Notes: generated by a model from the letters alone, not told the origin. A stretch of 64,000 bases of DNA from an uncultured virus (IMG/VR IMGVR_UViG_3300043539_001111) (IMGVR_UViG_3300043539_001111:1-64000), one strand, 5' to 3'. Counted from the stretch's first letter, positions 18,673 to 36,519 are shown. Program-made: numbers and translations.

Positions 18673-19241
18673 TATAGTAAGTGTTGTTTATTTTCTTTTA
18701 TTCCTCCACGATACCAATGTTGAACATATATTCCTTTCATTAATCCAACTTTCTCATTAATTAATCTAATTTTTCTGTGAATATCGTTATCAATAGTTAA
18801 CATTTTATCTTCTTTAAAACCACCAACTTTTTCCCATACAGATTTTTTGATTGCAATAAAAACGCCACTTAATTCCATATTTTTTGTTACATCCATAACT
18901 TGATTTCCATATAATTCCCAAATACGGTCACCAAAATTTCTATGATATTCTTGGTCGTTTGTTTTAACGTCAACATTAGGTGCAATTTGGTATTGGCAAT
19001 TAACTCTATTGGTTACACAGGTAAATAAAGAATATTCAGGGTTAGAATCAATAACCTCTTCGATTCGTTTACCAAAAAAATGAGATGTATGAACCGCATC
19101 TCCGTCTAAGAAACAAATCCAATCATTAGTTTTAACCATTGACATTAATTCATTATATGATTTACCAATATTTTTATCAGAATTCCAAGGAATCATATGA
19201 AAAACTCTTCCTTTAGGTTTAATAAATGTAATTTCAGACAT
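18672..19241 (-). CDS. GT2-like glycosyltransferase
   Basis: WICFLDGD, WEKVGGF, IDND. Confidence 0.75.
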   Translation of the reverse strand: MSEITFIKPKGRVFHMIPWNSDKNIGKSYNELMSMVKTNDWICFLDGDAVHTSHFFGKRIEEVIDSNPEYSLFTCVTNRVNCQYQIAPNVDVKTNDQEYHRNFGDRIWELYGNQVMDVTKNMELSGVFIAIKKSVWEKVGGFKEDKMLTIDNDIHRKIRLINEKVGLMKGIYVQHWYRGGIKENKQHLL

Positions 19242-19307
19242 ATTATTTAGTATATAGTATTAAAATAGTGTATTTGATGTATTTATAAATATTGAACCTT
19301 TCTTTTT

Positions 19308-20453
19308 ATGAAATTAATTATTGTATCCACCTTTTGGAATTCTGAAAAATATGTAGCAGACTGTATTAAGTCAATAAAAAATCAATATTATAGTGAGTTT
19401 GTTGCTTATATAGTTGATGATGTTTCGACCGACAATTCTTATGAAGTTGCCCTTGAGGCGATTGATGGTGATGAAAGATTTATATTAATTAAAAACACCG
19501 AAAAAAAATATAAAACAAAAAATTTTATTGATGTCATCAATAATAATCCGGATATTGATTGGGATGATGTTATTATTGAAATTGATGGTGATGACCAACT
19601 AAGTGATAACTTTGTTTTAGGTTTAATTAATAAAATTTATACAAATGAAAACATATGGATTTGTGGTTCAAAATGGATGGATAAAAATGGTGTTGTAGGG
19701 AATTATGGTAAATTTAATGCTGATAAAGCAAGAATTAAATCATGGAATTTCTCACACATGAGAACCTATCGAGCATTTTTATTTAGAATGATAAAAGAAG
19801 AACATTTAATGTTTGAAGGTGAATATTTTAAAGCCGGATGTGATATTGGTGCCGGAATCCCTATGTTAGAAATGGCCGGAAATGAACATTTTTATTATTT
19901 GGACCAAGTTACTTATATCTACACATGGCATGATAACCAATCATATTCAAGTACAAATTCATTTGGTGATAAAACTTTGCAAAGTAAAGTTGCGGGATAT
20001 GTTTATAAATTACCAAAATATGAAAAAGTAATAATAGTTAATGAAGATGGTGTAACATACACACCTAATTATGGTAAACCAAAAGAAAGTGTTGAATTAA
20101 TATCTCGATTAACCGCTCCAAAACCAAGATTATCTAAAAAACCTGTGGTTGTTCAACCTACCATTGTTGAAAAACCGGTTGTTGTTGACAAAACAAAGAG
20201 TATAAATTTAATTAATTCTTTATTGAATAAAAAAGAACCAACTGATAATGTTGATTATAGTGTTATTAATAAAATAATACAAAATAAATCCATTTATATA
20301 CCACCTAAAAAAGATAGTAAACCCCTTAAAGAACTTGTTCCAAACTATCGTAATCAGTTAACCGAACTTAAAAAAGATTCTATGACTAATCAAAGAAAAC
20401 AATTTGACGAAGTTTATATGAAAAAAAGAAAAAAAGGTGGATTATATTTTTGA
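19308..20453 (+). CDS. GT2 glycosyltransferase with C-terminal extension
   Basis: IVDDVSTDNS, EIDGDDQL. Confidence 0.85.
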   Translation: MKLIIVSTFWNSEKYVADCIKSIKNQYYSEFVAYIVDDVSTDNSYEVALEAIDGDERFILIKNTEKKYKTKNFIDVINNNPDIDWDDVIIEIDGDDQLSDNFVLGLINKIYTNENIWICGSKWMDKNGVVGNYGKFNADKARIKSWNFSHMRTYRAFLFRMIKEEHLMFEGEYFKAGCDIGAGIPMLEMAGNEHFYYLDQVTYIYTWHDNQSYSSTNSFGDKTLQSKVAGYVYKLPKYEKVIIVNEDGVTYTPNYGKPKESVELISRLTAPKPRLSKKPVVVQPTIVEKPVVVDKTKSINLINSLLNKKEPTDNVDYSVINKIIQNKSIYIPPKKDSKPLKELVPNYRNQLTELKKDSMTNQRKQFDEVYMKKRKKGGLYF

Positions 20454-20483
20454 TAATTAAATAATTTGTATTACTTTTGTCCA

Positions 20484-20747
20484 ATGAAAACATTTGATGA
20501 TTTAGTATTTAAACCGCACCCATTAGGTAGAGGTTGTGTTATGGCCAGATTAGATTTAGGAAACGATATTGAAGTTTCCGTGGTTGGAGGTCCGGGGTTA
20601 TATGGAAATGGAAAAACTTCATTTGAAGTCGCAGCATTCTACAAAACTCTTGGTAAATTTGTACCATTTGAAGATGGTGAAGATGTTTCAGGTTGGAACT
20701 CAAAAGTTTCCGTAACAAAAATTATTAACAGATTAGAAAATTTATAA
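20484..20747 (+). CDS. hypothetical protein
   Basis: ORF after Bacteroidota-type promoter. Confidence 0.7.
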   Translation: MKTFDDLVFKPHPLGRGCVMARLDLGNDIEVSVVGGPGLYGNGKTSFEVAAFYKTLGKFVPFEDGEDVSGWNSKVSVTKIINRLENL

Positions 20748-20750
20748 ATT

Positions 20751-21008
20751 ATGCCAGATTTTAGCACCTATGTTGACATTGACCCGAGTGAATACGTTGA
20801 TAATTGTTCACCTAGAGAAATTACAGAATTAATTAATATCCTTGTTGATGAAGGGTATTTAGATGGTGAGCCAGTTACATCCCCTAATCACCACAATCTA
20901 TTAGACGAGGAGTGGGCAAATATTATTAGTAAGATAATGAAGTCCCGATTACTCTTATCTAGCGAGGATGAAAATACAATAATTGAGATTGCAAAAAGAT
21001 TAATATAA
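20751..21008 (+). CDS. hypothetical protein
   Basis: ORF track. Confidence 0.7.
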   Translation: MPDFSTYVDIDPSEYVDNCSPREITELINILVDEGYLDGEPVTSPNHHNLLDEEWANIISKIMKSRLLLSSEDENTIIEIAKRLI

Positions 21009-21024
21009 AAAAAATAAAAAAATA

Positions 21025-21055
21025 TTTGACTTTTGATAAACTTTTTGTAAGTTTG
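21025..21055 (+). promoter_or_regulatory. Bacteroidota sigma-A-type promoter upstream of leader ORF 1
   Basis: TTTG-N19-TAAGTTTG. Confidence 0.65.
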
Positions 21056-21101
21056 TAATAGTTATTAAGAACAAGGTAGAAATACCACAAAAAAAAGAAA
21101 A

Positions 21102-21224
21102 ATGAAAAACACTAATAAACATATGAATGTCTCGATTTGGAACCAACAATTTAGTAATTGTTCGTATCCGCGTATCTCGCATACAAGTTCAGCTGATTTA
21201 TTAAGTGATTTAATTTTATACTAA
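21102..21224 (+). CDS. putative attenuator leader peptide of tRNA array 1 (40 aa)
   Basis: MKNTNKHMNVSIWNQQFSNCSYPRISHTSSADLLSDLILY*; contains AGTTCAG, complementary to the terminator 5' arm. Confidence 0.75.
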   Translation: MKNTNKHMNVSIWNQQFSNCSYPRISHTSSADLLSDLILY

Positions 21225-21247
21225 AGATTAAACCAATAATATAAGAT

Positions 21248-21283
21248 AAAATCCTGAACTCAAAAAGTTCAGGATTTTTTTTT
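21248..21283 (+). terminator. intrinsic terminator (attenuator 1)
   Basis: AAAATCCTGAACT-CAAAA-AGTTCAGGATTTT plus T tract. Confidence 0.9.
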
Positions 21284-21291
21284 GTCAAAAA

Positions 21292-21360
21292 ATTGGAAGT
21301 TAAAAAAAAAGGATTACCTTTGTCCCGTCAAAATAAAGGATAAGTTATTTGAAATATTGG
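21292..21360 (+). promoter_or_regulatory. sigma-A-type promoter plus boxA-like element before tRNA array 1
   Basis: TTG..TACCTTTG, then AAGTTATTTGAAATATTGG (near-identical at 25686). Confidence 0.6.
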
Positions 21361-21369
21361 TAAGAAAAT

Positions 21370-21451
21370 GGAAGAGTGGACAGTTGGTTGTCGAGCGGTC
21401 TTGAAAACCGTCGCTCGTAATGGGTTGCAGGTTCGAATCCTGTCTCTTCCG
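21370..21451 (+). tRNA. tRNA-Ser(TGA)
   Basis: cloverleaf, loop CTTGAAA, long variable arm. Confidence 0.9.
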
Positions 21452-21552
21452 CGGGTTAGTTAAATAGTTTAATCCACACCCAAAAAAGAATGTCCGGAGA
21501 GAGTCCGGGGCGAACGTAATTGTGGTAATCGTTCTTTAACTAAAAAATATTT

Positions 21553-21624
21553 TGCCCCTTCGTATATCGGTTAGTACACATGGTTTTGGTCCATGCGGGG
21601 GGAGTTCGATTCTCTCAGGGGTAA
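21553..21624 (+). tRNA. tRNA-Gln(TTG)
   Basis: CATGG-TTTTGGT-CCATG. Confidence 0.9.
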
Positions 21625-21631
21625 CAAAAAT

Positions 21632-21703
21632 GGTGATATGGTCGATTGGTTTAGGCACTGGATTGCAAACTCAGTTAGGTGGGTTCGATTCCTACTATCA
21701 CCT
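21632..21703 (+). tRNA. tRNA-Cys(GCA)
   Basis: loop TTGCAAA, U73. Confidence 0.9.
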
Positions 21704-21757
21704 CAACGGGTTCGGTGGAAACCCAAAAATAGATGATGAATCTATGTCCACCAAAAT

Positions 21758-21826
21758 GCCGAGGGGTCAGGTGACCGGAGATGGCTCATATCTATTTCTA
21801 GAATGGCTCGATACCATTTCTCGGTA
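21758..21826 (+). tRNA. tRNA-Met(CAT), atypical (4-nt D loop)
   Basis: GATGG-CTCATAT-CTATT; T loop CTCGATA. Confidence 0.65.
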
Positions 21827-21880
21827 CGAACAGCACTCAGTTTATATGTTTGAGGGTGGGAGGAATCTAAACATATATTT

Positions 21881-21951
21881 GCCTCGATGGCGTAATGGGA
21901 GCGTATTTGTCTTACATACAAATGGTGGGGGTTCAATTCCCTCTCGAGGTA
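21881..21951 (+). tRNA. tRNA-Val(TAC)
   Basis: TTTGT-CTTACAT-ACAAA. Confidence 0.9.
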
Positions 21952-22007
21952 CAAAAATCTAAAATTTGAGCAGTAAAATGTCTTAAATTTGAGCAATACA
22001 AAAAATT

Positions 22008-22088
22008 GGGTAGTAAAAGTCGTTCGGATACGGCAGCCAGACTGTAAATCTGGTCCTTTTGGGAGTGGTTCGAGTCCACTACTGCCCA
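22008..22088 (+). tRNA. tRNA-Tyr(GTA)
   Basis: CCAGA-CTGTAAA-TCTGG; atypical D arm. Confidence 0.85.
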
Positions 22089-22234
22089 CAATGATAATGG
22101 TCTTCTCTATCTCTCGGATGTCGACAATCCAAGATAGGTCAAAGAATTCACACACCCCCTGCCGGTGCACCGTAAAACTACGAATAAGCAGTTAAGATTG
22201 GAGCGAGATGGGTACTCCAACATTATCATTACTT

Positions 22235-22307
22235 GGTTCTCTTGTGTAAGTGGTCTGCACGCAAGACTGAAAATCTTGAGGATAGAGTTCGATTCTCTGG
22301 GGAACCA
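22235..22307 (+). tRNA. tRNA-Phe(GAA)
   Basis: CAAGA-CTGAAAA-TCTTG. Confidence 0.9.
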
Positions 22308-22384
22308 CGGAGTCCTGAAATAACAGGAAACCCCCACTCCCATATGGCAGCCGGTCCATTAACCCGGTGAAGTGGGGTAAATAT

Positions 22385-22470
22385 TGACGGGTTGCCGTAG
22401 TTGGTCGAACGGTCCGGACTGTTAATCCGGTGAAAATATTCCATCGTGGGTTCGAATCCCACCCCGTCAG
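22385..22470 (+). tRNA. tRNA-Asn(GTT) with long variable region
   Basis: CCGGA-CTGTTAA-TCCGG, G73. Confidence 0.85.
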
Positions 22471-22521
22471 CGAATTTTTTCGAAAATTAACATATTTATT
22501 ATTAACAAAAAAAGTTAATTT

Positions 22522-23061
22522 ATGGAAAGGTATTCGGAACAAATAATTTCTTTAAGAAATGAAGGTAAATCGTATAAAGAAATTAAAAAAATTTTAGGTT
22601 GTGCTTTATCAACTATCTCATATCATTGTACTAAAAATAAAGTTGGTGGTTTTTCAGATAGATTATCGGATGATGATAAGAAAAAATTACAAGAACTATA
22701 TGATGAATTAGGTTCAGTTAAAAAAGTTAGAAAAATGACAGGTAGGTCGGTTGAAACAATATTAAAATATGTTGTAACTAAAAAACCTACAAAAAAAATA
22801 ACATCATCTGAATCAGTTATAAATTGGAGAAAAAGAACTAAACAAAAGTTAATTCAATATAAAGGGGGTTCTTGTGAATTATGTGGATATTATAAATGTG
22901 AACGGGCACTTGAATTTCATCATATTAACCCTGAAGAGAAAGATTTTAGTATTAGTGGTAAAAGTTTATCGTTTGATAAATTAAAAGATGAGGTTGATAA
23001 GTGTATGTTAGTTTGTTCTAATTGTCATTGTGAAATACACGACGGACTTATTAACTTATAA
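22522..23061 (+). CDS. HTH + HNH endonuclease (homing-endonuclease-like)
   Basis: CELCGY..ALEFHH..CMLVCSNCHCEIH. Confidence 0.85.
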   Translation: MERYSEQIISLRNEGKSYKEIKKILGCALSTISYHCTKNKVGGFSDRLSDDDKKKLQELYDELGSVKKVRKMTGRSVETILKYVVTKKPTKKITSSESVINWRKRTKQKLIQYKGGSCELCGYYKCERALEFHHINPEEKDFSISGKSLSFDKLKDEVDKCMLVCSNCHCEIHDGLINL

Positions 23062-23068
23062 AATATAT

Positions 23069-23143
23069 GGTGGCTATAGTGTAACGGTTAACACGATAGA
23101 TTGTGGTTCTGTAAATGGGAGTTCGATTCTCCTTAGTCACCCA
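23069..23143 (+). tRNA. tRNA-His(GTG)
   Basis: loop TTGTGGT, G-1, ends CCA. Confidence 0.9.
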
Positions 23144-23148
23144 AAAAT

Positions 23149-23220
23149 GTCTCCATAGTTCAACGGATAGAACGTCAGGCTACGGACTTGAAGATGTGGG
23201 CTCGAATCCTGCTGGAGACA
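23149..23220 (+). tRNA. tRNA-Arg(ACG)
   Basis: TCAGG-CTACGGA-CTTGA. Confidence 0.9.
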
Positions 23221-23296
23221 CAAAAAAATCGCTGATAGTAATATCGAAGGTGTGTAATGATATCAACATCGTAGGTTAAGCGATATCCTACAAAAT

Positions 23297-23382
23297 GGAG
23301 AGTAAAACAATCAGGGTATTGTCACCTCCTGCTAAGAGAGTGGTTCGGTAAAATGGATGGATTTCGAGTATTCTGCTCTCCG
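23297..23382 (+). tRNA. tRNA-Ser(GCT), 8/4-type cloverleaf
   Basis: 8-bp acceptor GGAGAGTA/TGCTCTCC, 4-bp T stem, loop CTGCTAA. Confidence 0.8.
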
Positions 23383-23398
23383 CAGAAAAATAATAACA

Positions 23399-23473
23399 CT
23401 AGATGTAGAGGAGCCCGGAGTCCTCGCCGTCCTTGGAAGACGGAGACCGCAAGTTCAAATCTTGCCATCTAGA
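23399..23473 (+). tRNA. tRNA-Pro(TGG)
   Basis: CCGTC-CTTGGAA-GACGG. Confidence 0.9.
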
Positions 23474-23478
23474 CGACC

Positions 23479-23552
23479 CGGTACTTAGCTCAATTGGTTA
23501 GAGCACTCGCCTGATACGTGAGAGGTTATAGGTTCGATTCCTATAGTACCGA
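23479..23552 (+). tRNA. tRNA-Ile(GAT)
   Basis: CTCGC-CTGATAC-GTGAG. Confidence 0.9.
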
Positions 23553-23635
23553 CAAATGTGGCTCACAAACTTTGATTATTAAGTTCAAATTATGTATAAT
23601 TTGAGCCCAATGTTAAAGTAAAATGAGCTCAATAA

Positions 23636-23707
23636 TCCCCCGTAGCAAACCGGTGTAGGCAACTGGCTTTTAACCAGTGGGGTCAGGTTCAACTCCTGAC
23701 GGGGGAA
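23636..23707 (+). tRNA. tRNA-Lys(TTT)
   Basis: ACTGG-CTTTTAA-CCAGT. Confidence 0.9.
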
Positions 23708-23740
23708 CAAAAAGAATGTTTAACTAATAAATCAAAAGTT

Positions 23741-23980
23741 GTGAGTAGTGTTACTTGGTCAGTATTTAGTGCTGAATATTTTAGTGAAGTAAAAAAAGAA
23801 TCAATGTGGAGAAAACAAACTTTTCTTTATATGGGAGATTTATCCAACGTAGATATGACAACAGATTGGAGATTTAGTGATGTTGAAGGAAAAAGAAGAA
23901 AGTGTGAATTTTTAGGGTTAATAGATAATCCGGAATTTCCACTAAAAGAACCAATAGAAACATATAGAAATAATGAGTAA
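23741..23980 (+). CDS. hypothetical protein
   Basis: ORF overlapping HNH start. Confidence 0.6.
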   Translation: MSSVTWSVFSAEYFSEVKKESMWRKQTFLYMGDLSNVDMTTDWRFSDVEGKRRKCEFLGLIDNPEFPLKEPIETYRNNE

Positions 23981-24479
23981 GTACGGAAAAACATTGGTTT
24001 TGGATTCAAGTTATATGCCAAGGTCTATCATAAACACTGAAAGGGCTTTTGTCATAACTTATAAGGGTAATGCAAGTGTTATTGCCGAACATCCGGAATC
24101 ATTCAGTTTGATTAATCCTGAATTGGATATCAAAAAACCCTCAATTATTAGGGTTTACAAATATGTGAATCAACCGATTCATAAAGTTCCTTTAAGTAGG
24201 GAGAATGTTTATAGAAGAGATGGTTATGCCTGTGTATATTGTGGATGTGACAATCGTAAAACTTTAACATTAGACCACGTAATACCCCAATCTAAGGGAG
24301 GTAAAGATGCGTGGGACAACTTGGTAACTGCTTGTAAAAGATGTAATAGTGAGAAATCAAACTTGACATTGGAAGAATATGGTAAAGAAATACCTCAACC
24401 AAGACGACCACATTATTTGATGATGATAAAACAAGTTCATTATATTCCTGAAGAATGGAATGATTATTTATTTTTCTAA
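23973..24479 (+). CDS. HNH endonuclease (McrA-like)
   Basis: RRDGYACVYCG..LTLDHVIPQSKGG..NLVTACKRCNSEK. Confidence 0.9.
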   Translation: MSKYGKTLVLDSSYMPRSIINTERAFVITYKGNASVIAEHPESFSLINPELDIKKPSIIRVYKYVNQPIHKVPLSRENVYRRDGYACVYCGCDNRKTLTLDHVIPQSKGGKDAWDNLVTACKRCNSEKSNLTLEEYGKEIPQPRRPHYLMMIKQVHYIPEEWNDYLFF

Positions 24480-24536
24480 AAATTTTGGCAGAATAAAAAA
24501 TAGTTGTATCTTTGTTGAAATAAAAACGGAGAAACT

Positions 24537-24680
24537 ATGTCATTAGAAAAAGAAATTTTGGGATTTACAAATTGGTTATACGCTAACAATTGGAAACTAA
24601 TTGGTGATGGGATGTGTTTAAATCTTGAAACAAAGTCGATTGGTTATATTAACGAACTGATGGTTGAATATAATAAATAA
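24537..24680 (+). CDS. 47-aa hypothetical protein (not in ORF track)
   Basis: MSLEKEILGFTNWLYANNWKLIGDG...; TATCTTTG promoter upstream. Confidence 0.6.
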   Translation: MSLEKEILGFTNWLYANNWKLIGDGMCLNLETKSIGYINELMVEYNK

Positions 24681-24752
24681 AACACCCGCTACGTAACGAA
24701 AGCGCTACGACACGTACTATCTGGCAGGTCAGGTCGGGTGTTTATTGAAAAT

Positions 24753-24823
24753 GCAGGTCACAGACAAGGTGTCGGTACAGTCTCCAAAACTGTTACGGGT
24801 AGGTTCGATTCCTACGGTCTGCG
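24753..24823 (+). tRNA. tRNA-Trp(CCA)
   Basis: ACAGT-CTCCAAA-ACTGT, G73. Confidence 0.85.
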
Positions 24824-24893
24824 CAGAAGACGGAGAGTGAGTCAAGGGTAATTCCGTTATGGTTATCCCTCGAGGGTCTCTCCTGAAGAATTG

Positions 24894-25091
24894 AAAAGTT
24901 TAACAACCGGGGTGTCCATACTCTAAAAAACTAATGGACTAGTCGTGTTGATAGGGGTGACCTCCCAACAGTAGCACCGTAGTAATACGGTAAAGGATAG
25001 ATAAGGACTGGTACGCCGGTGAGGAACACGACCAATTCCGGAATTCCCATTGTAGCCCGCTACGACCCGAGGGCGGGGTTGTTAAACTTTT
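24894..25091 (+). ncRNA. unidentified ~200-nt multibranch structured RNA
   Basis: 15-bp closing stem AAAAGTTTAACAACC/GGTTGTTAAACTTTT, internal helices. Confidence 0.6.
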
Positions 25092-25113
25092 TTTAATAAT
25101 AAATCTTACCAAT

Positions 25114-25431
25114 ATGAAAAATACAATAGATAGAAGAATGTTGGATGTGGATATCACACCAATAACTTTATCAAAAATTAAATCTCAGGGATTAACACCA
25201 TATTATTATGATGAAAATACTGATATTGTTGAATTAACAGGACCAATTAAAGGGAAGACATATAATACAAAACCAAAAGAAGTGTTTTTATTAACTCCGG
25301 ATGAGTATGATAAAATTAAAAAATTATCAGACAATATTAAGGAAATGATTGAACTTAAATTAAAACAAATTAAGTTATACAAACAATATATTCCAGCGGT
25401 TATGGGAGAAATTATAAAAAAAAATAATTAA
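25114..25431 (+). CDS. hypothetical protein
   Basis: ORF track. Confidence 0.7.
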   Translation: MKNTIDRRMLDVDITPITLSKIKSQGLTPYYYDENTDIVELTGPIKGKTYNTKPKEVFLLTPDEYDKIKKLSDNIKEMIELKLKQIKLYKQYIPAVMGEIIKKNN

Positions 25432-25488
25432 TACTTGACACTTTTTAAAAAAGGACTATATTTATTAGAAATTACAATAACACAGAAA

Positions 25489-25563
25489 ATGCAAACTTTA
25501 AATACATTATTACTTACAATAGGCGCGGAGGGTAGAGATACAACTCGGTCGGAGATGGTATGA
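25489..25563 (+). CDS. putative attenuator leader peptide of tRNA array 2 (24 aa)
   Basis: MQTLNTLLLTIGAEGRDTTRSEMV*; contains GGAGATGG, complementary to terminator 5' arm CCATCTCC. Confidence 0.75.
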   Translation: MQTLNTLLLTIGAEGRDTTRSEMV

Positions 25564-25595
25564 TGTATTGTTAAGTAACATAATAATAATAGATT

Positions 25596-25628
25596 AAGTC
25601 CATCTCCAAAAGAGATGGATTTTTTTTT
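25596..25628 (+). terminator. intrinsic terminator (attenuator 2)
   Basis: AAGTCCATCTC-CAAAA-GAGATGGATTT plus T tract. Confidence 0.9.
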
Positions 25629-25637
25629 ATAAAAAAG

Positions 25638-25704
25638 TTTGGTATAATGAAATAAAGTATTATCTTTGTACCATCAAAAAGAAACAAGTTAATTGAAATA
25701 TTGG
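25638..25704 (+). promoter_or_regulatory. sigma-A-type promoter plus boxA-like element before tRNA array 2
   Basis: TTTG-N19-TATCTTTG; AAGTTAATTGAAATATTGG. Confidence 0.65.
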
Positions 25705-25715
25705 TAATATAAAAC

Positions 25716-25787
25716 GGCCCTATCGTCTATCGGTTAGGACATTTGGTTTTCATCCAAAAAAGTCGGGTTCGACTCCCGGTGGGGCTA
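25716..25787 (+). tRNA. tRNA-Glu(TTC)
   Basis: TTTGG-TTTTCAT-CCAAA. Confidence 0.9.
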
Positions 25788-25792
25788 CAATT

Positions 25793-25864
25793 GGGGATAT
25801 AGTATAACGGCTATTACAATGGTTTTGCAAATCGTAAATTAGGGTTCGATTCCCTATATCTCCA
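25793..25864 (+). tRNA. tRNA-Ala(TGC)
   Basis: loop TTTGCAA, G3.U70. Confidence 0.9.
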
Positions 25865-25868
25865 CAAA

Positions 25869-25940
25869 GGTCTATTCGTTCAACGGCTAGGATGCTACCC
25901 TGTCACGGTAGAGATGAGAGTTCGATTCTCTCATAGACCG
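25869..25940 (+). tRNA. tRNA-Asp(GTC)
   Basis: CTACC-CTGTCAC-GGTAG. Confidence 0.9.
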
Positions 25941-25989
25941 CAAACCATAGGATTAATTACCCTATGACTGTCAGGTTCGAAACTGACGA

Positions 25990-26102
25990 TTGATTATGGT
26001 GTAATGGTGCACAGAGGAACGGAGTAGGAATACGAAAAGCATTGGGCTTTCGTCGGTTCTGAAAGGGGACTCAGGATTAAGGTTCGAGTCCTTATTAATC
26101 AG
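25990..26102 (+). ncRNA. tRNA-like RNA with anticodon arm replaced by an expanded domain
   Basis: acceptor TGATTA/TAATCA, D arm, T arm TAAGG-TTCGAGT-CCTTA; no anticodon loop. Confidence 0.6.
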
Positions 26103-26108
26103 CAACAT

Positions 26109-26181
26109 CGCGAGGGGGAGGTATAGTATCTCATTGGTCTCATAAGCCAATCAAAGCAGGAGCGTTACCTGCCCTACGCTA
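26109..26181 (+). tRNA. tRNA-Met(CAT), initiator-like, atypical T loop
   Basis: TTGGT-CTCATAA-GCCAA; unpaired C1; T loop AGCGTTA. Confidence 0.65.
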
Positions 26182-26203
26182 CTAATTTAATAACTAAATC
26201 CGT

Positions 26204-26374
26204 ATGGCTACAGCAGCAAAAAGGTCAAGACAATCAAGAGCACTTGATATGTTACAGAACCAATTGAAAAGTGGTGTGAAAACACAAAAGGGTACAAGGG
26301 ACGTAAAAGTTCCATTAACAGATTCTGACAAGAAAAGAATCGAAAAAGAGATGGGGATTCTCCAATCTAGATAA
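26204..26374 (+). CDS. 56-aa basic hypothetical protein (not in ORF track)
   Basis: MATAAKRSRQSRALDMLQNQLKSGVKTQKG...ILQSR*. Confidence 0.65.
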   Translation: MATAAKRSRQSRALDMLQNQLKSGVKTQKGTRDVKVPLTDSDKKRIEKEMGILQSR

Positions 26375-26456
26375 TGAAAAAGTGTCTCGGTACGCTCTGA
26401 CGAAAGTTAACGACGAGGTCCCGGTAGACAGAACGCGTCTGATTCTACCCAAATCT

Positions 26457-26528
26457 GCGAATATCGTATAGTGGTTATTACTCCATCCTTCCAAGTTGGA
26501 GACGAGAGTTCGATTCTCTCTATTCGCT
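26457..26528 (+). tRNA. tRNA-Gly(TCC)
   Basis: loop CTTCCAA, U73. Confidence 0.9.
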
Positions 26529-26535
26529 CAAAATT

Positions 26536-26607
26536 GCCTTCATAGTTCAAGGGATAGAATAAGACACTTCTAATGTTTTGATATAGGTTCGAGTCCTATT
26601 GAGGGTA
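26536..26607 (+). tRNA. tRNA-Arg(TCT)
   Basis: AGACA-CTTCTAA-TGTTT. Confidence 0.9.
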
Positions 26608-26615
26608 CAACAATT

Positions 26616-26688
26616 GCTCTAGTGGTGGAACGGTATACACACTTGTCTTAGGAACAAGGTTTTGAGGGTTCGAATCCCTCCTTGAGTA
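26616..26688 (+). tRNA. tRNA-Leu(TAG), short variable region
   Basis: CTTGT-CTTAGGA-ACAAG. Confidence 0.85.
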
Positions 26689-26791
26689 CAATACATTATC
26701 ATAACTCGGTGTGATACACCGCCAACTACCTCCTTAAACAACGTGGGAACTGCGGTTCTCCCAATGTGGCCGAAGTGATGATGTTAAAAAA

Positions 26792-26947
26792 TGATAACTG
26801 TGGTGGAATTGGTATACACGGGGGTCTAGTCCAATATGATTGGTTGAGAGTGAACTTCTCAATCTCTTGCTCACGGACGGAAACTGCCGGAGAAAACACA
26901 GCAAGAAGTGTTATATCCTTACAGGTTCGAGTCCTGTTGGTTATCAG
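26792..26947 (+). ncRNA. tRNA-like RNA with ~100-nt central insertion
   Basis: acceptor TGATAAC/GTTATCA, Leu-type D arm, T arm ACAGG-TTCGAGT-CCTGT. Confidence 0.6.
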
Positions 26948-26998
26948 TAGTTTAAGAGACAGAGTTGACTTCTACTTAAAAAAAATACTCTGCGACAG

Positions 26999-27081
26999 GC
27001 TGGTGTCGCATAGAGGTTGATTGCACCTGATTTGTAATCAGGAACCGAAAGGTCACGTTGGTTCGAATCCAATCACCAGCT
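26999..27081 (+). tRNA. tRNA-Thr(TGT) with long variable arm
   Basis: CCTGA-TTTGTAA-TCAGG; variable ACC-GAAA-GGT. Confidence 0.85.
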
Positions 27082-27306
27082 CAGGTCATCCACTTTCGTT
27101 CTCTCCGTATGAGGGTATGGGTTCTTGGATGTAAAATGTAGAACTCGGACGGTTGAAATAGACCAAACGATAATACGGCCTTTTTACAAATTTTTGTGCG
27201 GACAAAAAATACGGGTTCTTCGGTGGGCACCGGGTTATTTCTCTTAAAATAACACAACTACTAAAAGTATGGACACATATGGGGAAACCGAACCCGTGTC
27301 CTATAT

Positions 27307-27386
27307 AGTCGGGTGGCGGAATTGGATAGACGCGGCCCCGTCGAGGGGTTTAACCGGAATTACAGGTTCGAGTCCTGTCCTGACTA
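27307..27386 (+). tRNA. atypical tRNA, possibly Arg(TCG)
   Basis: good acceptor, D and T arms; loop CGTCGAG lacks U33. Confidence 0.5.
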
Positions 27387-27603
27387 CAATTGAGTGAGAG
27401 ATACTCAATAGATTTGGCATCGTTTCTTAAACAATGATGTAGCTGACGCCTCAAACGGTTTTACAGAGGGGGTCTGTCGGAATAAAGGGAACTGACAACA
27501 TTCCCTCCGAGTAGTTGTTGACTTTTAAGCGGTAAGACGCGATGGGTTTTGAATAGGAAAACTGTGGACATCTACACCAAAATAATCTCATTGGTGGAAA
27601 CAC

Positions 27604-27675
27604 ATCCTCGTGGTGAAACGGTAAACACAACAAGTTTAAGCCTTGTAAGCTGCAGGTTCGACTCCTGTCGGGGAT
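27604..27675 (+). tRNA. tRNA-Leu(TAA), short variable region
   Basis: ACAAG-TTTAAGC-CTTGT. Confidence 0.8.
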
Positions 27676-27742
27676 ACTAATATTTACTAATATGAAAAAC
27701 CAACAACCAAACTCCACATAGTTTTAGCAGTTAGCTAAGATT

Positions 27743-27973
27743 ATGACTCAGAAATTGAGAATTTGGAGAGTAGTTCCCGTTTATAACGGTGTTCAGGCTC
27801 CCACTTTTTTCGTAGAAACTACGGAAGAGGGACGTGAGAAGGCAGAGGAATCTGCAATTAAACAAGCACGAATGAAATCGGGCTTAGGAAAGTTCAAACA
27901 ATGGAACTTTAGATTGGAGAAACTCTCTGTGAGGGTTGATAAATTTGGTAGGTATGTGAAACACCACCAATAG
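27743..27973 (+). CDS. hypothetical protein
   Basis: ORF track. Confidence 0.65.
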   Translation: MTQKLRIWRVVPVYNGVQAPTFFVETTEEGREKAEESAIKQARMKSGLGKFKQWNFRLEKLSVRVDKFGRYVKHHQ

Positions 27974-28012
27974 TTATTCAAGTGTTTATGGGTACACTAA
28001 AAACCCATAATT

Positions 28013-28087
28013 GGCCTCTTAACTCAGTCCGGTAAGAGTAGCTCGCTCATAACGAGAAGGTCACAGGTTCAAATCCTGTAGGGGCCA
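28013..28087 (+). tRNA. tRNA(CAT): Ile2 (lysidine) or elongator Met
   Basis: CTCG-CTCATAA-CGAG. Confidence 0.85.
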
Positions 28088-28091
28088 CAAC

Positions 28092-28122
28092 AACCTTCAA
28101 GGAAACTTGGGGGTTTTTTATT
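28092..28122 (+). terminator. terminator ending tRNA array 2
   Basis: AACCTTCAAG-GAAA-CTTGGGGGTT plus T tract. Confidence 0.8.
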
Positions 28123-28259
28123 TACAACAAAACAAATCATCCTTATATTTATTAATGAAACCTTGTTGCTGAGGTTCTCGTGTCCACAGAGGCATTTGAG
28201 TTGGAATTGATACCAACGAAGAGAAGTTCAATAAACATAAAAAATAAAATAAGGAAATT

Positions 28260-29132
28260 ATGTATTACCAAACAAAAACAGGTATGCCTTGTGCGTACAT
28301 CACAAAAGACAAAAAACGTCTTAAACAATTTGGACAAACTGTCTATCTTAAAAATGGGGATGAATTCGAACTAGAATTATTTAACCCAACATCAAACACA
28401 ATATTAGCAAAAATAAAACTTGACGGAAATTATATTGCCGGAGGAGGAATTGTACTTAAACCAGGACAACGTGTATATCTTGAGAGATATCTTAATGAAG
28501 CTCGTAAGTTTAAGTTTGAAACTTATGAGGTTGACGGAACATCAAACGAGGTATTGGACGCCATCGCCGGAAATGGGGATGTTGTTATTGACTTCTTTGA
28601 TGAATATAAACAACCGGTGTGGAATAACCCAATAACGTATTATGGTGGTTCATTTGGGGGCCCAAATTATGTTTCAGGGAATCCGTCATTTACTACTAAC
28701 ACAAATTATGTAAATGGTATTACAACAACCACAAATGGTAATGTATCATTTACATCATCAAGTAATACTGCGGGAGTTAATTTTAATACTACTTCAATAA
28801 GTAATACCTTTGCAGGACCAAACTTAAGAAGTGCGACTTCAAGATTAAAAAAATCTAAACCTAATTCTCGTAGTGAGGTTACTATGGATATGTTATCTAT
28901 GGACTCTATTGAAACCGGTAGAGTTGAAAAGGGGGGTTCATCTGACCAATCATTTCAAACAGTGAATAAAACTTTTAATCATCACACTTGTGCAAGTTCT
29001 GTATGGAAGATTCTACCTATGTCACAAAAGGTATATGAAAAACAAGACTTAAAAGTGTATTGTACTAACTGTGGAAAAAAAAGAAAAAAGGATTCCGATA
29101 AATTTTGTTCTTCTTGTGGGAACAAATTCTAA
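28260..29132 (+). CDS. hypothetical protein with C-terminal zinc ribbon
   Basis: YCTNCGKK..KFCSSCGNKF. Confidence 0.75.
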   Translation: MYYQTKTGMPCAYITKDKKRLKQFGQTVYLKNGDEFELELFNPTSNTILAKIKLDGNYIAGGGIVLKPGQRVYLERYLNEARKFKFETYEVDGTSNEVLDAIAGNGDVVIDFFDEYKQPVWNNPITYYGGSFGGPNYVSGNPSFTTNTNYVNGITTTTNGNVSFTSSSNTAGVNFNTTSISNTFAGPNLRSATSRLKKSKPNSRSEVTMDMLSMDSIETGRVEKGGSSDQSFQTVNKTFNHHTCASSVWKILPMSQKVYEKQDLKVYCTNCGKKRKKDSDKFCSSCGNKF

Positions 29133-29235
29133 AAAATAAACAAATAACAAGGTTTCAAATTAAATCCATCATTTTTTCGTGATGGATTTTTTTATATTAA
29201 AAATTTGACTATCTTTGTAAAAAAATATATAAAGT

Positions 29236-29709
29236 ATGAAAAGGATTTTTATTGATATGGATGGTGTGTTGGTCGATTTAGGTGCGGAATTCGATAAATG
29301 GTTCGATGAACATCCAAATTTAGTTCACAAGTATAAACATAGTCCAGACCATATTCCGGGTATTTTTAGAGACCCTAAACCATATGATGGTGCTATTGAA
29401 GCAATCAATAAGTTGGTTGAGAGTGGTAAGTATGAATTATTAATTGCTACTGCATCACCTTGGGGTAACCCATATGCCTCAACAGATAAGAGGTATTGGA
29501 TTGAAAAATATTTTGGTAGGTTGTTTCATAAGAAAATGGTAATAACTCACCGAAAAGATTTATTACTTGGTGATTATTTAATTGATGACAGAACGGCAAA
29601 TGGTGCCGGAGAGTTTACCGGTGAATTAATTCATTTCGGTTGGAATTATGAGAAAAAAGTTTGGAATGAATATCCTGATTGGGATAGTGTATTAAAAAAA
29701 TTATTATAA
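29236..29709 (+). CDS. 5'(3')-deoxyribonucleotidase (NT5C-like HAD)
   Basis: IFIDMDGVL, ATASPW, GDYLIDD. Confidence 0.85.
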   Translation: MKRIFIDMDGVLVDLGAEFDKWFDEHPNLVHKYKHSPDHIPGIFRDPKPYDGAIEAINKLVESGKYELLIATASPWGNPYASTDKRYWIEKYFGRLFHKKMVITHRKDLLLGDYLIDDRTANGAGEFTGELIHFGWNYEKKVWNEYPDWDSVLKKLL

Positions 29710-29710
29710 A

Positions 29711-30181
29711 ATGGAAAATAATGTAAAACCACCTTACCGTATCTATTTAGATGACGTAAGAACTCCAACGGGAGATAATTGGATTGTTGTAAGAAATTAC
29801 GATGAATTTGTTAGTGAAGTAAATAAAGTTGGGTTAGAAAATATTGATATAATATCTTTGGACCACGATTTGGGTGATACTGCAATGAAAGAGTATTTTG
29901 ATAATGTTTCTCCAAACTATACTTTGGATTATAACAATATTGAAGAAAAAACAGGATATGACGCTGCTAAATTCTTGGTTGCATTATTTCACAATACTAA
30001 TGAAGCTCGTTTTAATATGAGTAGAAGTGATAGAAAGGCGAATAAATTTGTATTTCCAATTGTATATGTTCATTCTGCAAACCCTATTGGGAGTGCGAAC
30101 ATTATGGGATATTTGAACAATTTTTATATGAACGAGGGTCAAGCACAAACTTGTGTTAGAGTCAGAATACCACACGTATAA
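29711..30181 (+). CDS. cyclic-phosphate-processing receiver-like domain protein
   Basis: IYLDDVR, ISLDHDLG, TGYD, VHSANPIG. Confidence 0.8.
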   Translation: MENNVKPPYRIYLDDVRTPTGDNWIVVRNYDEFVSEVNKVGLENIDIISLDHDLGDTAMKEYFDNVSPNYTLDYNNIEEKTGYDAAKFLVALFHNTNEARFNMSRSDRKANKFVFPIVYVHSANPIGSANIMGYLNNFYMNEGQAQTCVRVRIPHV

Positions 30182-36039: not shown

Positions 36040-36141
36040 AGTCAGGAGACCATTGGTTGGTATCACCTCCCCAAGGTTGAGTAACGGTAAGGCCGACTCT
36101 TTATGGTAAAGACGGAACAGGTTCGAATCCTGTCCTGACTA
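36040..36141 (+). ncRNA. tRNA-like RNA, no clear anticodon
   Basis: acceptor AGTCAGG/CCTGACT, T arm ACAGG-TTCGAAT-CCTGT, extra hairpins. Confidence 0.55.
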
Positions 36142-36232
36142 CAAAAAAAAATTAAAAAAAAGTTTGACAGATAAAAATAAATGTCTTATCTTTGTACAAG
36201 AAATAAAGTTCATAAAAATATTGAAAGATTAG

Positions 36233-36305
36233 TGTGGGTGTCGTGTCGAGGTTTCAAATCCCTCCGGATTTATCCGTAGCTCAGATGGTAGAGCATACAC
36301 CCACA
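36233..36305 (+). ncRNA. circularly permuted tRNA mimic (YrlA/Y RNA-like module)
   Basis: outer stem, then T arm, closed acceptor hairpin, D arm TAGCTCAGATGGTAGAGC. Confidence 0.65.
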
Positions 36306-36317
36306 TTTTTTTTACAT

Positions 36318-36408
36318 GGTATTGTAGCTCAGTGGAAGATTTATCTTCCTTGGTAGAGCAAGAGTAACGAAAGACTCTGTGCCGCAGGTTCGAACCCCGC
36401 CGATACCA
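36318..36408 (+). ncRNA. tRNA-like RNA with D-loop hairpin insertion and 8-nt anticodon loop
   Basis: GGTATTG/CGATACC acceptor; AGAGT-AACGAAAG-ACTCT. Confidence 0.6.
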
Positions 36409-36519
36409 CAAATAAAAAAAAATTAAAAAAAAGTTTTATAAAGTGCTTGACAAATGAAAAAAATCACTTATCTTTGTAAAACAATTGAGGGAAACCTTAA
36501 ACGTTCTTAGAAATTTTAG

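What the first reader, a model, noticed from the sequence alone, without database searches (positions are those of the whole stretch)
21025..24823. Leader-peptide attenuator whose codons match the downstream tRNA array 1
Seen: a promoter, then a 40-codon ORF (21102-21224), an intrinsic terminator (21248-21283) and 15 tRNAs. AGTTCAG (21186-21192) inside the ORF is complementary to the terminator 5' arm CTGAACT, so it can act as an antiterminator. The first 27 codons (MKNTNKHMNVSIWNQQFSNCSYPRISH) include all 14 amino acids served by array 1 (S,Q,C,M,V,Y,F,N,H,R,P,I,K,W). 26 of the 27 belong to that set, with no L/A/D/E/G. Codon boxes also fit: both Ser boxes (TCG, AGT), Arg CGT for the ACG anticodon, Ile ATT/ATC. 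Established: this is the layout of trp/his-type ribosome-mediated attenuation. Inference: a stall at any of these codons (uncharged tRNA, or tRNA cut by an anticodon nuclease) permits readthrough into the replacement tRNAs, making a multi-tRNA shortage sensor. I do not know of a description of this. Caveats: a second promoter-like motif lies after the terminator, and the antiterminator helix is only 7 bp.
Basis: partly seen in the sequence, partly recalled or inferred. Interest (0 to 1): 0.95.

Follow-up and report, generated by a model that had tools for sequence, protein, structure and literature searches.

The report
Codon-matched leader attenuator before phage tRNAs
A tiny gene in front of this phage's tRNA block is spelled with one codon for every tRNA in the block and is wired to a switchable transcription stop, so it probably lets the phage make more tRNA when ribosomes run short of any of them, a control known for amino-acid genes but which I could not find published for tRNA genes.

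Summary
A Bacteroidota-type promoter (21025-21055), a 40-codon ORF (21102-21224), an intrinsic terminator (21248-21283) and a 15-tRNA block are all present. Codons 2-27 hold a codon for all 15 tRNAs (3 of 2,000,000 random draws). A second, paralogous module (25435-25716) does the same for array 2: all 10 tRNAs in 23 codons (563 of 2,000,000). The ORFs are intact in 27 of 27 and 33 of 34 related viral contigs.

The antiterminator helix shows two compensatory pair changes that weaken the terminator. Divergent phages found by promoter or motif similarity alone, among them cultured Cellulophaga phage phi4:1, have different leaders that match their own, different arrays. Six of six leaders score best with their own array (1 of 720 permutations). 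In 8 of 12 modules the first tRNA starts 2-8 nt after the terminator.

Best reading is a multivalent ribosome-mediated attenuator that senses tRNA supply (confidence 0.65). The main caveat applies to this window: a consensus second promoter lies behind each terminator, so the attenuator is not the only route into the arrays. Nothing has been shown experimentally. Earlier notes of this scan report the same layout on other DNA. Eight literature searches found no published account.

The parts
21025..21055 (+). Promoter P1 of module 1: TTTG (-33), 19 nt, TAAGTTTG (-7), Bacteroidota type
   Evidence: The motif class occurs 15 times in the window against 2.72 expected.
21102..21224 (+). Leader ORF 1: 40 codons plus stop, MKNTNKHMNVSIWNQQFSNCSYPRISHTSSADLLSDLILY
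   Evidence: Intact in 27 of 27 related loci at 36, 40 or 41 codons.
21105..21182 (+). Sensor part, codons 2-27: one or more codons for each of the 15 tRNAs of array 1; 25 of 26 codons are read by array 1
   Evidence: 3 of 2,000,000 random draws cover all 15.
21186..21199 (+). Antiterminator strand (region 2), AGTTCAGctGATTT, codons 29-33. Pairs with the terminator 5' arm 21249-21260
   Evidence: There are two compensatory pairs in 4 of 21 distinct sequences.
21248..21283 (+). Intrinsic terminator: 13-bp stem, 5-nt loop, T-run
   Evidence: 97.4% of cells are paired across 21 distinct sequences. Hairpin energy -15.5 to -19.5 kcal/mol depending on the flanks folded.
21315..21322 (+). -7 box TACCTTTG of a second promoter P2, behind the terminator
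   Evidence: A TANNTTTG box lies between the T-run and the first tRNA in 18 of 20 distinct leader-1 loci.
21344..21363 (+). Conserved motif GTTATTTGAAATATTGGTAA in the 5' leader of the tRNA precursor; function unknown
   Evidence: 2 copies in the window against 0.24 expected. Found before tRNA arrays in other viral contigs.
21370..23708 (+). tRNA array 1: Ser(tga) Gln Cys Met Val Tyr Phe Asn His Arg(acg) Ser(gct) Pro Ile(gat) Lys, with an inserted HTH/HNH ORF at 22522-23061
24752..24823 (+). Trp(CCA)-like tRNA gene, separated from the array by three ORFs and preceded by its own promoter-like motif at 24484-24514
25435..25464 (+). Promoter P1 of the paralogous module 2: TTGACA, 16 nt, TATATT(TA)
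   Evidence: (11 of 12 consensus positions).
25489..25563 (+). Leader ORF 2: 24 codons plus stop, MQTLNTLLLTIGAEGRDTTRSEMV. It holds a codon for all 10 tRNAs of array 2
   Evidence: 563 of 2,000,000. A 24-codon ORF is present in 33 of 34 related loci.
25551..25558 (+). Antiterminator strand of module 2, GGAGATGG. Pairs with CCATCTCC at 25600-25607
   Evidence: Shuffle test 154 of 20,000.
25596..25628 (+). Intrinsic terminator of module 2: 11-bp stem plus T-run
   Evidence: 99.2% of cells are paired, with one compensatory pair (UA 11, CG 10).
25638..25668 (+). Second promoter P2 of module 2: TTTG, 19 nt, TATCTTTG
25716..28115 (+). tRNA array 2: Glu Ala Asp Gly Arg(tct) Leu(tag) Thr Arg(tcg) Leu(taa) Met(cat), closed by the terminator at 28092-28115

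Best explanation
This is a ribosome-mediated (leader-peptide) transcription attenuator that reports on the supply of the tRNAs encoded behind it.

Transcription starts at P1 and a ribosome translates the leader.

If every codon is read promptly, the ribosome runs over the antiterminator strand (21186-21199) and reaches the stop codon. It then sits between that strand and the terminator's 5' arm. The local 3:4 hairpin (21248-21278) forms and RNA polymerase stops at the T-run.

If the ribosome stalls in codons 2 to about 24 because one of the 15 aminoacyl-tRNAs is scarce, the antiterminator strand stays free. It pairs with the 5' arm as the arm emerges, the terminator cannot form, and transcription runs on into the array. 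The scarcity could have several causes: the tRNA is not yet made by the phage, absent from the host, or cut.

The leader is therefore an OR gate over all tRNAs of its array and closes a negative feedback loop. Module 2 does the same for array 2.

Shown from sequence: the parts, the codon match, its conservation, its tracking across phages, and the alternative pairing with limited covariation.

Inferred: translation of the ORF, the stall-to-readthrough logic, and the physiological trigger.

In this window a second promoter behind each terminator adds attenuator-independent transcription.
For: Codon match in this window:
- Leader 1 holds all 15 array-1 tRNA species in 26 codons (3 of 2,000,000), or in the whole 39 codons (909 of 2,000,000).
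- Leader 2 holds all 10 array-2 species in 23 codons (563 of 2,000,000).
- Each is the only one of 308 short ORFs in the genome to do so.
- The two are complementary: leader 1 has 25 of 26 codons read by array 1 and 2 of 26 by array 2; leader 2 has 18 of 23 read by array 2 and 5 of 23 by array 1.

The two modules are paralogous from about 30 nt before the terminator to the first tRNA. Their stems differ, and each ORF carries a copy matching its own stem.

Conservation: ORFs are intact in 27 of 27 and 33 of 34 loci, with in-frame length changes only.

Covariation: in leader 1, AU to GC and GC to AU changes in the antiterminator occur in 4 of 21 sequences. The same changes turn terminator pairs into a G-U wobble and a mismatch.

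Folding: without the 3' arm the minimum-energy fold pairs the 5' arm with the 3' part of the ORF in both modules and in 9 of 10 leaders tested.

Tracking across phages found by promoter or motif similarity, not by leader content:
- G001: a 41-codon leader with all 20 amino acids and a codon for all 23 anticodons of its single 25-tRNA array (72 of 2,000,000).
- L224: the first 17 codons use only the six amino acids of its array, and 19 of 31 codons are read (979 of 1,000,000).
- L273: 21 of 29 (48 of 1,000,000).
- L266: 12 of 23 (34 of 1,000,000).
- G002: 20 of 34 (603 of 1,000,000).
- Cellulophaga phage phi4:1 module A: 7 of 7 anticodons (459 of 1,000,000). Module B: 22 of 26 codons (362 of 1,000,000). 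Neither matches the other's array.
- Six of six leaders score best with their own array, and the diagonal is the top of 720 permutations.

Geometry: matched codons make up 134 of 205 upstream of the antiterminator strand against 28 of 80 from it onward (Fisher p 4.8e-6).

Gating: in 8 of 12 modules the first tRNA starts 2-8 nt after the T-run, leaving no room for a promoter. There the array can be reached only through the terminator.
Against: - A consensus promoter lies between terminator and array in both modules here. The same holds in 18 of 20 and 21 of 21 distinct loci of the two families. In the leader-2 family up to 955 nt and small ORFs lie in between.
- The antiterminator is short. The longest Watson-Crick match beats shuffles at p<0.05 in only 5 of 10 leaders (combined p 0.0012).
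- In leader 2, 7-8 of 23 sequences lose the outer pairs of the antiterminator.
- phi4:1 module A showed no upstream partner for the 5' arm in the truncated fold.
- The covariation in leader 1 is probably one evolutionary event.
- Most tRNAs have a single codon in the leader, so only a severe shortage would cause a long stall.
- In the 40-codon form a terminating ribosome does not cover the antiterminator strand: the stop codon lies 30 nt further on.
- Within the family the leader does not follow tRNA changes. CGG and tRNA-Arg(tcg) do not go together. TGT, TGG, AGT and ATG stay in leaders whose array shows no matching tRNA at the threshold used.
- One module, L276, shows no significant match: 6 of 32 codons (64,992 of 1,000,000).
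- There is no direct evidence of translation or of regulated 3' ends.
Confidence: 0.65

Rival explanations
1. In this phage the attenuator is a relic or a minor input. The arrays are transcribed from the second promoters (P2). P1, leader and terminator form a small closed unit, and the terminator mainly insulates P2 from upstream transcription.
For: Consensus -7 boxes lie behind both terminators. P2 is present in 18 of 20 and 21 of 21 distinct loci of the two families, with inserted ORFs in the leader-2 family. Within the family the leader content does not follow tRNA losses.
Against: The leaders stay intact and codon-complete in 27 of 27 and 33 of 34 loci. The antiterminator shows compensatory change at the terminator's expense. 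The core of ORF 1 varies less (17 of 84 columns) than the 5' UTR (21 of 40) or the spacer (20 of 23), though 17 of those columns were fixed by the search pattern.
Confidence: 0.12
2. The logic is reversed. Smooth translation of the leader promotes readthrough and a stall lets the terminator form. Plentiful tRNA would then raise tRNA transcription (positive feedback, or a check that the translation system works).
For: The sequence alone does not fix the sign of the switch. In the long-tailed leaders a terminating ribosome leaves the antiterminator strand uncovered.
Against: The stop codon lies 23-35 nt before the 5' arm in all 10 leaders measured (plus G002 by hand). A terminating ribosome therefore cannot melt or mask the terminator. 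Matched codons sit upstream of the antiterminator strand, which fits stall-induced antitermination. Positive feedback on a spare-parts set has no evident use.
Confidence: 0.1
3. The codon-matched ORF works, but not through transcription termination. A stall on it could, for example, trigger cleavage or processing of the transcript, or the peptide or the terminated RNA could act in trans.
For: Terminated leader RNAs and leader peptides with functions in trans are reported in Sinorhizobium (PMC6614838 and PMC7298713; I saw only the search listings and the start of the abstracts).
Against: The terminator directly abuts the first tRNA in 8 of 12 modules. An alternative pairing with the 5' arm recurs with different sequences. 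The peptides of different modules share no sequence, only the match to their arrays.
Confidence: 0.08
4. Chance, or an ordinary small protein gene whose composition happens to resemble the array.
For: The L211, L214 and L266 leaders look like hydrophobic signal-type peptides. L276 does not match its array.
Against: The joint probabilities are very low. Independent matches occur in G001, G002, L224/L273, L266 and phi4:1 modules A and B. The cross-pairing test gives 1 of 720. Variable columns in leader 1 by codon position are 2, 7 and 8 of 28, not the third-position excess of a conserved protein.
Confidence: 0.03

Closest known systems
Multivalent leader-peptide attenuators of enterobacterial amino-acid operons (thr leader with Thr and Ile codons; ilvGMEDA leader with Ile, Leu and Val codons). 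Recalled, not checked in a paper here.
   Same: Promoter, short translated leader, terminator with an alternative antiterminator pairing, and more than one kind of regulatory codon in a single leader.
   Different: The regulated genes are tRNAs, not biosynthetic enzymes. The leader holds one or a few codons for each of 10-23 tRNA species instead of runs of two or three amino acids. It occurs in phages of Bacteroidota-type promoter usage. The antiterminator strand lies inside the ORF, before the stop codon. Here a second promoter follows the terminator.
trp and his operon attenuators (trpL, hisL). Recalled.
   Same: Stall-dependent choice between a 2:3 and a 3:4 hairpin. In the full-length fold the early codons pair with region 2, like a 1:2 helix.
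   Different: No run of a single codon. What is sensed would be tRNA supply in general, not one amino acid.
T-box riboswitches
   Same: They couple tRNA status to readthrough of a terminator.
   Different: T-boxes bind uncharged tRNA directly, have no ORF, and control aminoacyl-tRNA synthetase and amino-acid genes. No T-box match was found in 19000-30000 at E up to 1.
Phage tRNA sets as replacements for host tRNAs lost to defence nucleases (PMC10264068; I saw only the search listing and the start of the abstract)
   Same: It gives a reason why a phage might need tRNA on demand.
   Different: That work concerns the tRNAs themselves. Its listing says nothing about a leader-peptide control.
Rfam Thr_leader (RF00506)
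   Same: A match at 21226-21283 covers the terminator hairpin.
   Different: 31.8 bits against a gathering score of 55, with 58 nt laid over a 118-position model. This is a hairpin-level resemblance only.

Membership tests
Ribosome-mediated (leader-peptide) transcription attenuator | Promoter directly upstream of a short ORF with a start codon | tested here: met
   P1 at 21025-21055 and the ATG at 21102. The ORF is conserved in 27 of 27 loci.
Ribosome-mediated (leader-peptide) transcription attenuator | Regulatory codons in the leader that correspond to the regulated function | tested here: met
   All 15 tRNA species of array 1 have a codon in codons 2-27. The match tracks array content across phages.
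Ribosome-mediated (leader-peptide) transcription attenuator | Intrinsic terminator between the leader and the regulated genes | tested here: met
   21248-21283; 97.4% of cells are paired in 21 sequences.
Ribosome-mediated (leader-peptide) transcription attenuator | Mutually exclusive antiterminator pairing that involves the terminator's 5' arm | tested here: met
   12 pairs with a 2-nt bulge. It forms in the truncated minimum-energy fold. Two pairs are compensatory. The shuffle test gives 185 of 5,000. Support is weaker in half of the other leaders.
Ribosome-mediated (leader-peptide) transcription attenuator | Regulated genes lie in the same transcription unit, with no other promoter in between | tested here: not met
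   In this window TACCTTTG at 21315-21322 and P2 at 25638-25668 lie in between. The feature is met in 8 of 12 modules of other phages, with 2-8 nt from the T-run to the first tRNA.
Ribosome-mediated (leader-peptide) transcription attenuator | A ribosome stall at the regulatory codons raises readthrough | not testable with these tools
   This needs reporter fusions, Term-seq or Ribo-seq. Contigs from RNA libraries bridge the terminator but cannot exclude DNA.
Rfam Thr_leader (RF00506) | Score at or above the family's gathering threshold | tested here: not met
   31.8 bits against 55.
T-box riboswitch | Match to the T-box covariance model (specifier loop, T-box sequence) | tested here: not met
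   No T-box match in 19000-30000 at E up to 1.

The most novel reading that the evidence does not exclude
Phages of Bacteroidota, and perhaps others, run their tRNA arrays on demand. Each array is headed by a 'codon sampler' mini-gene that tests, one codon at a time, whether the cell can still decode with every tRNA species the array can replace. A stall at any one of them opens the terminator, whether the host lacks that tRNA, it has decayed after host shut-off, or a defence nuclease has cut it. The two samplers of this phage split the genetic code between them without overlap. That would make this a built-in sensor and repair loop for translation capacity, and a direct readout of anticodon-nuclease attack.
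Probability: 0.4. Interest if true: 0.95.

Novelty: new variant of a known kind. Interest (0 to 1): 0.88.

Why it matters
Why phages carry tRNAs has been argued for decades, and how these genes are controlled is largely unknown. A leader whose codon list equals the tRNA list of the array behind it would be the first leader-peptide attenuator known to control tRNA genes. It would also be the most multivalent one known, with 10-23 inputs.

It turns the idea that phage tRNAs replace missing or damaged host tRNAs into a testable prediction: deplete one tRNA, and only the module whose leader names it should open.

It also helps annotation. The leader predicts which tRNAs belong to one regulatory unit and can support doubtful calls, such as the Trp-like gene or CAT-anticodon tRNAs that may read ATA.

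A cultured system, Cellulophaga phage phi4:1 with Cellulophaga baltica, carries two clear modules, so the experiments are feasible.

Tried and rejected
- Rfam gave a Thr_leader match at 21226-21283, below threshold and covering only the hairpin. It gave no T-box match.
- The sigma-70 consensus scan was not enriched (46 against 37.6 +/- 7.0). The Bacteroidota-type motif was the informative one.
- blastn of 20700-22700 against the cultured-phage collection gave only tRNA-sized matches in 8 records.
- RNA libraries: the four runs were laid as assembled contigs of relatives, mostly 90-95% alike. Some contigs bridge the terminator (X3 record 14, 21145-21394; X4 record 21, 20967-21545; X2 record 11, 21007-21828). 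DNA carry-over cannot be excluded, and contigs show no ends or levels, so I draw no conclusion.
- Fine-scale tracking inside the family failed. CGG in leader 2 does not go with tRNA-Arg(tcg): it is present with TGG leaders in L060, L073 and L079, and not detected with CGG leaders in L048, L050, L056, L068 and L076. CGG also lies too close to the antiterminator strand to act as a sensor.
- phi4:1 gp076, in front of Ser-Asn-Trp-Phe, was considered as a third module and dropped. Only 6 of 32 codons are read (276,500 of 1,000,000) and I saw no promoter or terminator.
- L276 has the full layout, but its leader does not match its two detected tRNAs.
- L093 and L158 carry the TTGAAATATTGGTAA motif before tRNAs without a leader and terminator.
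- A 1:2-type helix (codons 4-7 with 21197-21207) appears in the full-length fold. By eye its changes across relatives were mixed, and I did not count it.
- My script mis-picked the terminator of G002. I placed it by hand.

Full report
**What is there**

The window belongs to a 74,464-bp virus record of 31.5% G+C. From 21025 the sequence reads as follows:
- a Bacteroidota-type promoter, TTTG, 19 nt, TAAGTTTG
- an A-rich 5' UTR
- an ATG ORF of 40 codons at 21102-21224
- a 23-nt spacer
- a 13-bp hairpin with a T-run at 21248-21283
- a second promoter-like -7 box, TACCTTTG, at 21315-21322
- a conserved 20-mer at 21344-21363
- the tRNA block from 21370

The promoter class is real for this genome. 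TTTG-N18-20-TANNTTTG occurs 15 times against 2.72 +/- 1.73 in shuffles, and 0 of 100 shuffles reach 15.

ARAGORN default tRNAs in 21370-23708. A relaxed threshold adds Met(cat) and Ser(gct). The Trp-like gene at 24752-24823 is below Rfam's threshold, but it is homologous to a Trp(cca) gene that ARAGORN default calls inside the array of a relative.

**Is the codon match more than chance?**

Codons 2-27 hold a codon for each of the 15 tRNA species, and 25 of the 26 are read by array 1. With 2,000,000 draws from the phage's own codon usage:
- 3 covered all 15 species in 26 codons
- 22 reached 25 of 26 codons read
- 909 covered all 15 in the whole 39 codons, with no window chosen

Of 308 ATG ORFs of 20-60 codons in all six frames of the genome, only this one covers all 15.

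**A second module**

A second copy of the design lies outside the given coordinates:
- promoter at 25435-25464
- a 24-codon ORF at 25489-25563
- terminator at 25596-25628
- a second promoter at 25638-25668
- the same 20-mer
- array 2

This leader holds a codon for all 10 tRNAs of array 2, including AGA and CGG for the two Arg species and TTA and CTT for the two Leu species (563 of 2,000,000). It is the only short ORF in the genome to do so.

The two leaders are complementary: 25 of 26 against 2 of 26 codons for leader 1, and 5 of 23 against 18 of 23 for leader 2. The modules align from about 30 nt before the terminator to the first tRNA. The middle of each stem differs, and each ORF carries a copy of its own 3' arm: AGTTCAG in one, GGAGATGG in the other.

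**Conservation**

Exact-pattern scans of viral contigs gave 27 loci with leader 1 and 34 with leader 2. The pattern fixes 17-18 bases by construction.

The ORF is intact in 27 of 27 leader-1 loci, at 36, 40 or 41 codons, so all length changes are in frame. It is intact in 33 of 34 leader-2 loci, always at 24 codons; L052 is an unrelated match. In leader 2 two groups differ by offsetting one-codon shifts that keep both the length and the amino-acid set.

The first 27-30 codons of leader 1 are conserved and the tail is variable. Variable columns number 17 of 84 in the core, 28 of 39 in the tail, 21 of 40 in the 5' UTR and 20 of 23 in the spacer. By codon position the variable columns are 2, 7 and 8 of 28. 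That is not the pattern of a conserved protein.

**Alternative structures**

With the 3' arm left out, the minimum-energy fold pairs the 5' arm with 21186-21199 in module 1 and with 25551-25558 in module 2. Local energies are -12.7 and -21.0 kcal/mol, against -19.5 and -15.1 for the terminators. In the full-length fold the terminator forms and the antiterminator strand pairs with early codons.

Across 21 distinct leader-1 sequences, 90.6% of antiterminator cells pair. Two pairs change on both sides (AU to GC and GC to AU) in four sequences. In the terminator the same changes give a G-U and a mismatch. This supports the 2:3 helix specifically, but it is probably one event.

In leader 2 five pairs never vary and the outer three are lost in 7-8 of 23 sequences. 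The terminator has one compensatory pair.

**Does leader content track array content?**

I looked for relatives by things other than the leader: a 15-mer of the precursor motif and a promoter motif.

In the first set, 12 motif copies are followed by a tRNA within 100 nt. Two of these had new leader-terminator heads (L101, which is G001, and L159, which is G002), and two had none (L093, L158). In the second set, 11 of 80 had a tRNA within 600 nt: 5 with leader 1 and 6 new.

Results by module:
- G001 has one array of 25 tRNAs for all 20 amino acids. Its 41-codon leader contains all 20 amino acids and a codon for all 23 distinct anticodons (72 of 2,000,000).
- L224 starts with 17 codons drawn only from Lys, Thr, Tyr, Gln, Pro and Gly, the six amino acids of its array. 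19 of 31 codons are read (979 of 1,000,000).
- L273: 21 of 29 (48 of 1,000,000).
- L266: 12 of 23 (34 of 1,000,000).
- L214: 8 of 23 (462 of 1,000,000).
- L211: 6 of 25, with the array cut by the contig end (5,761 of 1,000,000).
- G002: 20 of 34 (603 of 1,000,000).
- L276: 6 of 32, not significant (64,992 of 1,000,000).

These nulls use the window phage's codon usage as a stand-in.

Cultured Cellulophaga phage phi4:1 has a repeated promoter, each copy followed by a leader and terminator in front of a sub-array:
- Module A covers 7 of 7 anticodons, with 11 consecutive matched codons (459 of 1,000,000).
- Module B has 22 of 26 codons read (362 of 1,000,000).
- A scored against B's array gives 7 of 21, and B against A's gives 3 of 26.

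These nulls come from 3,754 codons of its own locus.

In a 6 by 6 table of leaders against arrays, every leader scores best with its own array. The true pairing is the best of 720 permutations.

**Geometry**

Matched codons lie upstream of the strand that pairs with the 5' arm: 134 of 205 codons there, against 28 of 80 from it onward (Fisher p 4.8e-6). This covers ten modules. phi4:1 module A had no upstream partner in the truncated fold, and G001 was left out because all of its codons match.

The stop codon lies 23-35 nt before the 5' arm in all ten leaders measured. A terminating ribosome therefore cannot mask the terminator.

The longest Watson-Crick match between 5' arm and ORF beats shuffles at p<0.05 in 5 of 10 leaders and not in the other five. 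The combined p is 0.0012.

**The second promoter**

In 8 of 12 modules the first tRNA begins 2-8 nt after the T-run, so the array can be reached only through the terminator. G002 has 44 nt without a -7 box. Both modules of this window and L276 have 62-87 nt with one -7 box.

Within the window's families the box is the rule: 18 of 20 distinct leader-1 loci and 21 of 21 leader-2 loci. In the leader-2 family up to 955 nt and small ORFs lie in between. Here the attenuator can therefore only add to P2-driven transcription. The continued conservation of the leaders argues that it still matters.

**Limits**

There is no evidence of translation or of regulated ends. RNA-library contigs of relatives cover the leader and bridge the terminator, but they cannot exclude DNA.

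Within the family the leader does not follow tRNA gains and losses. In 24 of 24 leader-1 rows and 20 of 25 leader-2 rows, every tRNA with a readable anticodon has a codon in the leader. These rows are not independent, because the leaders are nearly identical.

**Comparison and novelty**

The design is that of leader-peptide attenuation. It comes closest to the multivalent thr and ilv leaders (recalled). What differs is the regulated product (tRNA), the number of inputs, and the setting in a phage.

It fails one defining feature in this window: there is another promoter before the regulated genes. That feature is met in most other modules.

Eight full-text searches found no account of leader-peptide control of tRNA genes. 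I saw only listings and the starts of abstracts and read no paper, and subscription journals are mostly not held.

Earlier notes of this scan describe the same layout on other DNA, including a close relative of this window. I read them, and they did not shape the analysis.

Noticed in passing
window 24680-25100: A G+C-rich stretch without ORFs lies behind the Trp-like tRNA. It includes a roughly 200-nt segment closed by GTTTAACAAC...GTTGTTAAAC and a T-run (24897-25096). The segment is conserved upstream of leader 2 in relatives. There is no Rfam match at E up to 1, and the fold z-score is -2.15. It may be an unknown structured RNA.
   Followed up: partly
window 21344-21363 and 25688-25707: The motif GTTAWTTGAAATATTGGTAA sits between P2 and the first tRNA of both arrays. 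Its 15-mer core also precedes tRNAs in unrelated-looking viral contigs: L093, L101, L158 and L159. In G001 it lies between the first and second tRNA. It could be a processing or binding signal.
   Followed up: partly
window 22522-23061 and 23973-24479: Two endonuclease-type ORFs lie inside or behind array 1. The first has an HTH_38 domain plus a weak HNH match. The second is a clear HNH (PF14279, E 1.5e-16). They are probably homing endonucleases, which may explain why gene order in the arrays differs among relatives.
   Followed up: partly
loci L001, L002, L003, L006, L007 (between terminator 2 and array 2): Relatives carry one or more small acidic ORFs with a shared (E/V)YSPILG motif between the leader-2 terminator and array 2. 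Each has its own copy of the P2 promoter. The window lacks them.
   Followed up: no
window 21750-21827, about 26110, and 28013-28088: There are three CAT-anticodon tRNA genes: two found at a relaxed threshold and one by default. Leader 2 contains ATA, G001's leader has two ATA codons, and G001's array has three CAT tRNAs. One CAT tRNA per set may be an ATA-reading tRNA-Ile. This was not tested.
   Followed up: no
window 36100-36410: A promoter-like motif lies at 36163-36194. It is followed by tRNA-like fragments and a 92-nt tRNA-Pro(tgg) call at 36318-36409, away from both arrays and without a leader ORF or terminator that I could see.
   Followed up: no
window 25991-26103 and 26793-26946: With introns allowed, ARAGORN calls two more tRNAs in array 2: Pro(tgg) with a 21-nt intron and Leu(gag) with a 62-nt intron. 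Both are doubtful, and I did not use them in any count.
   Followed up: no
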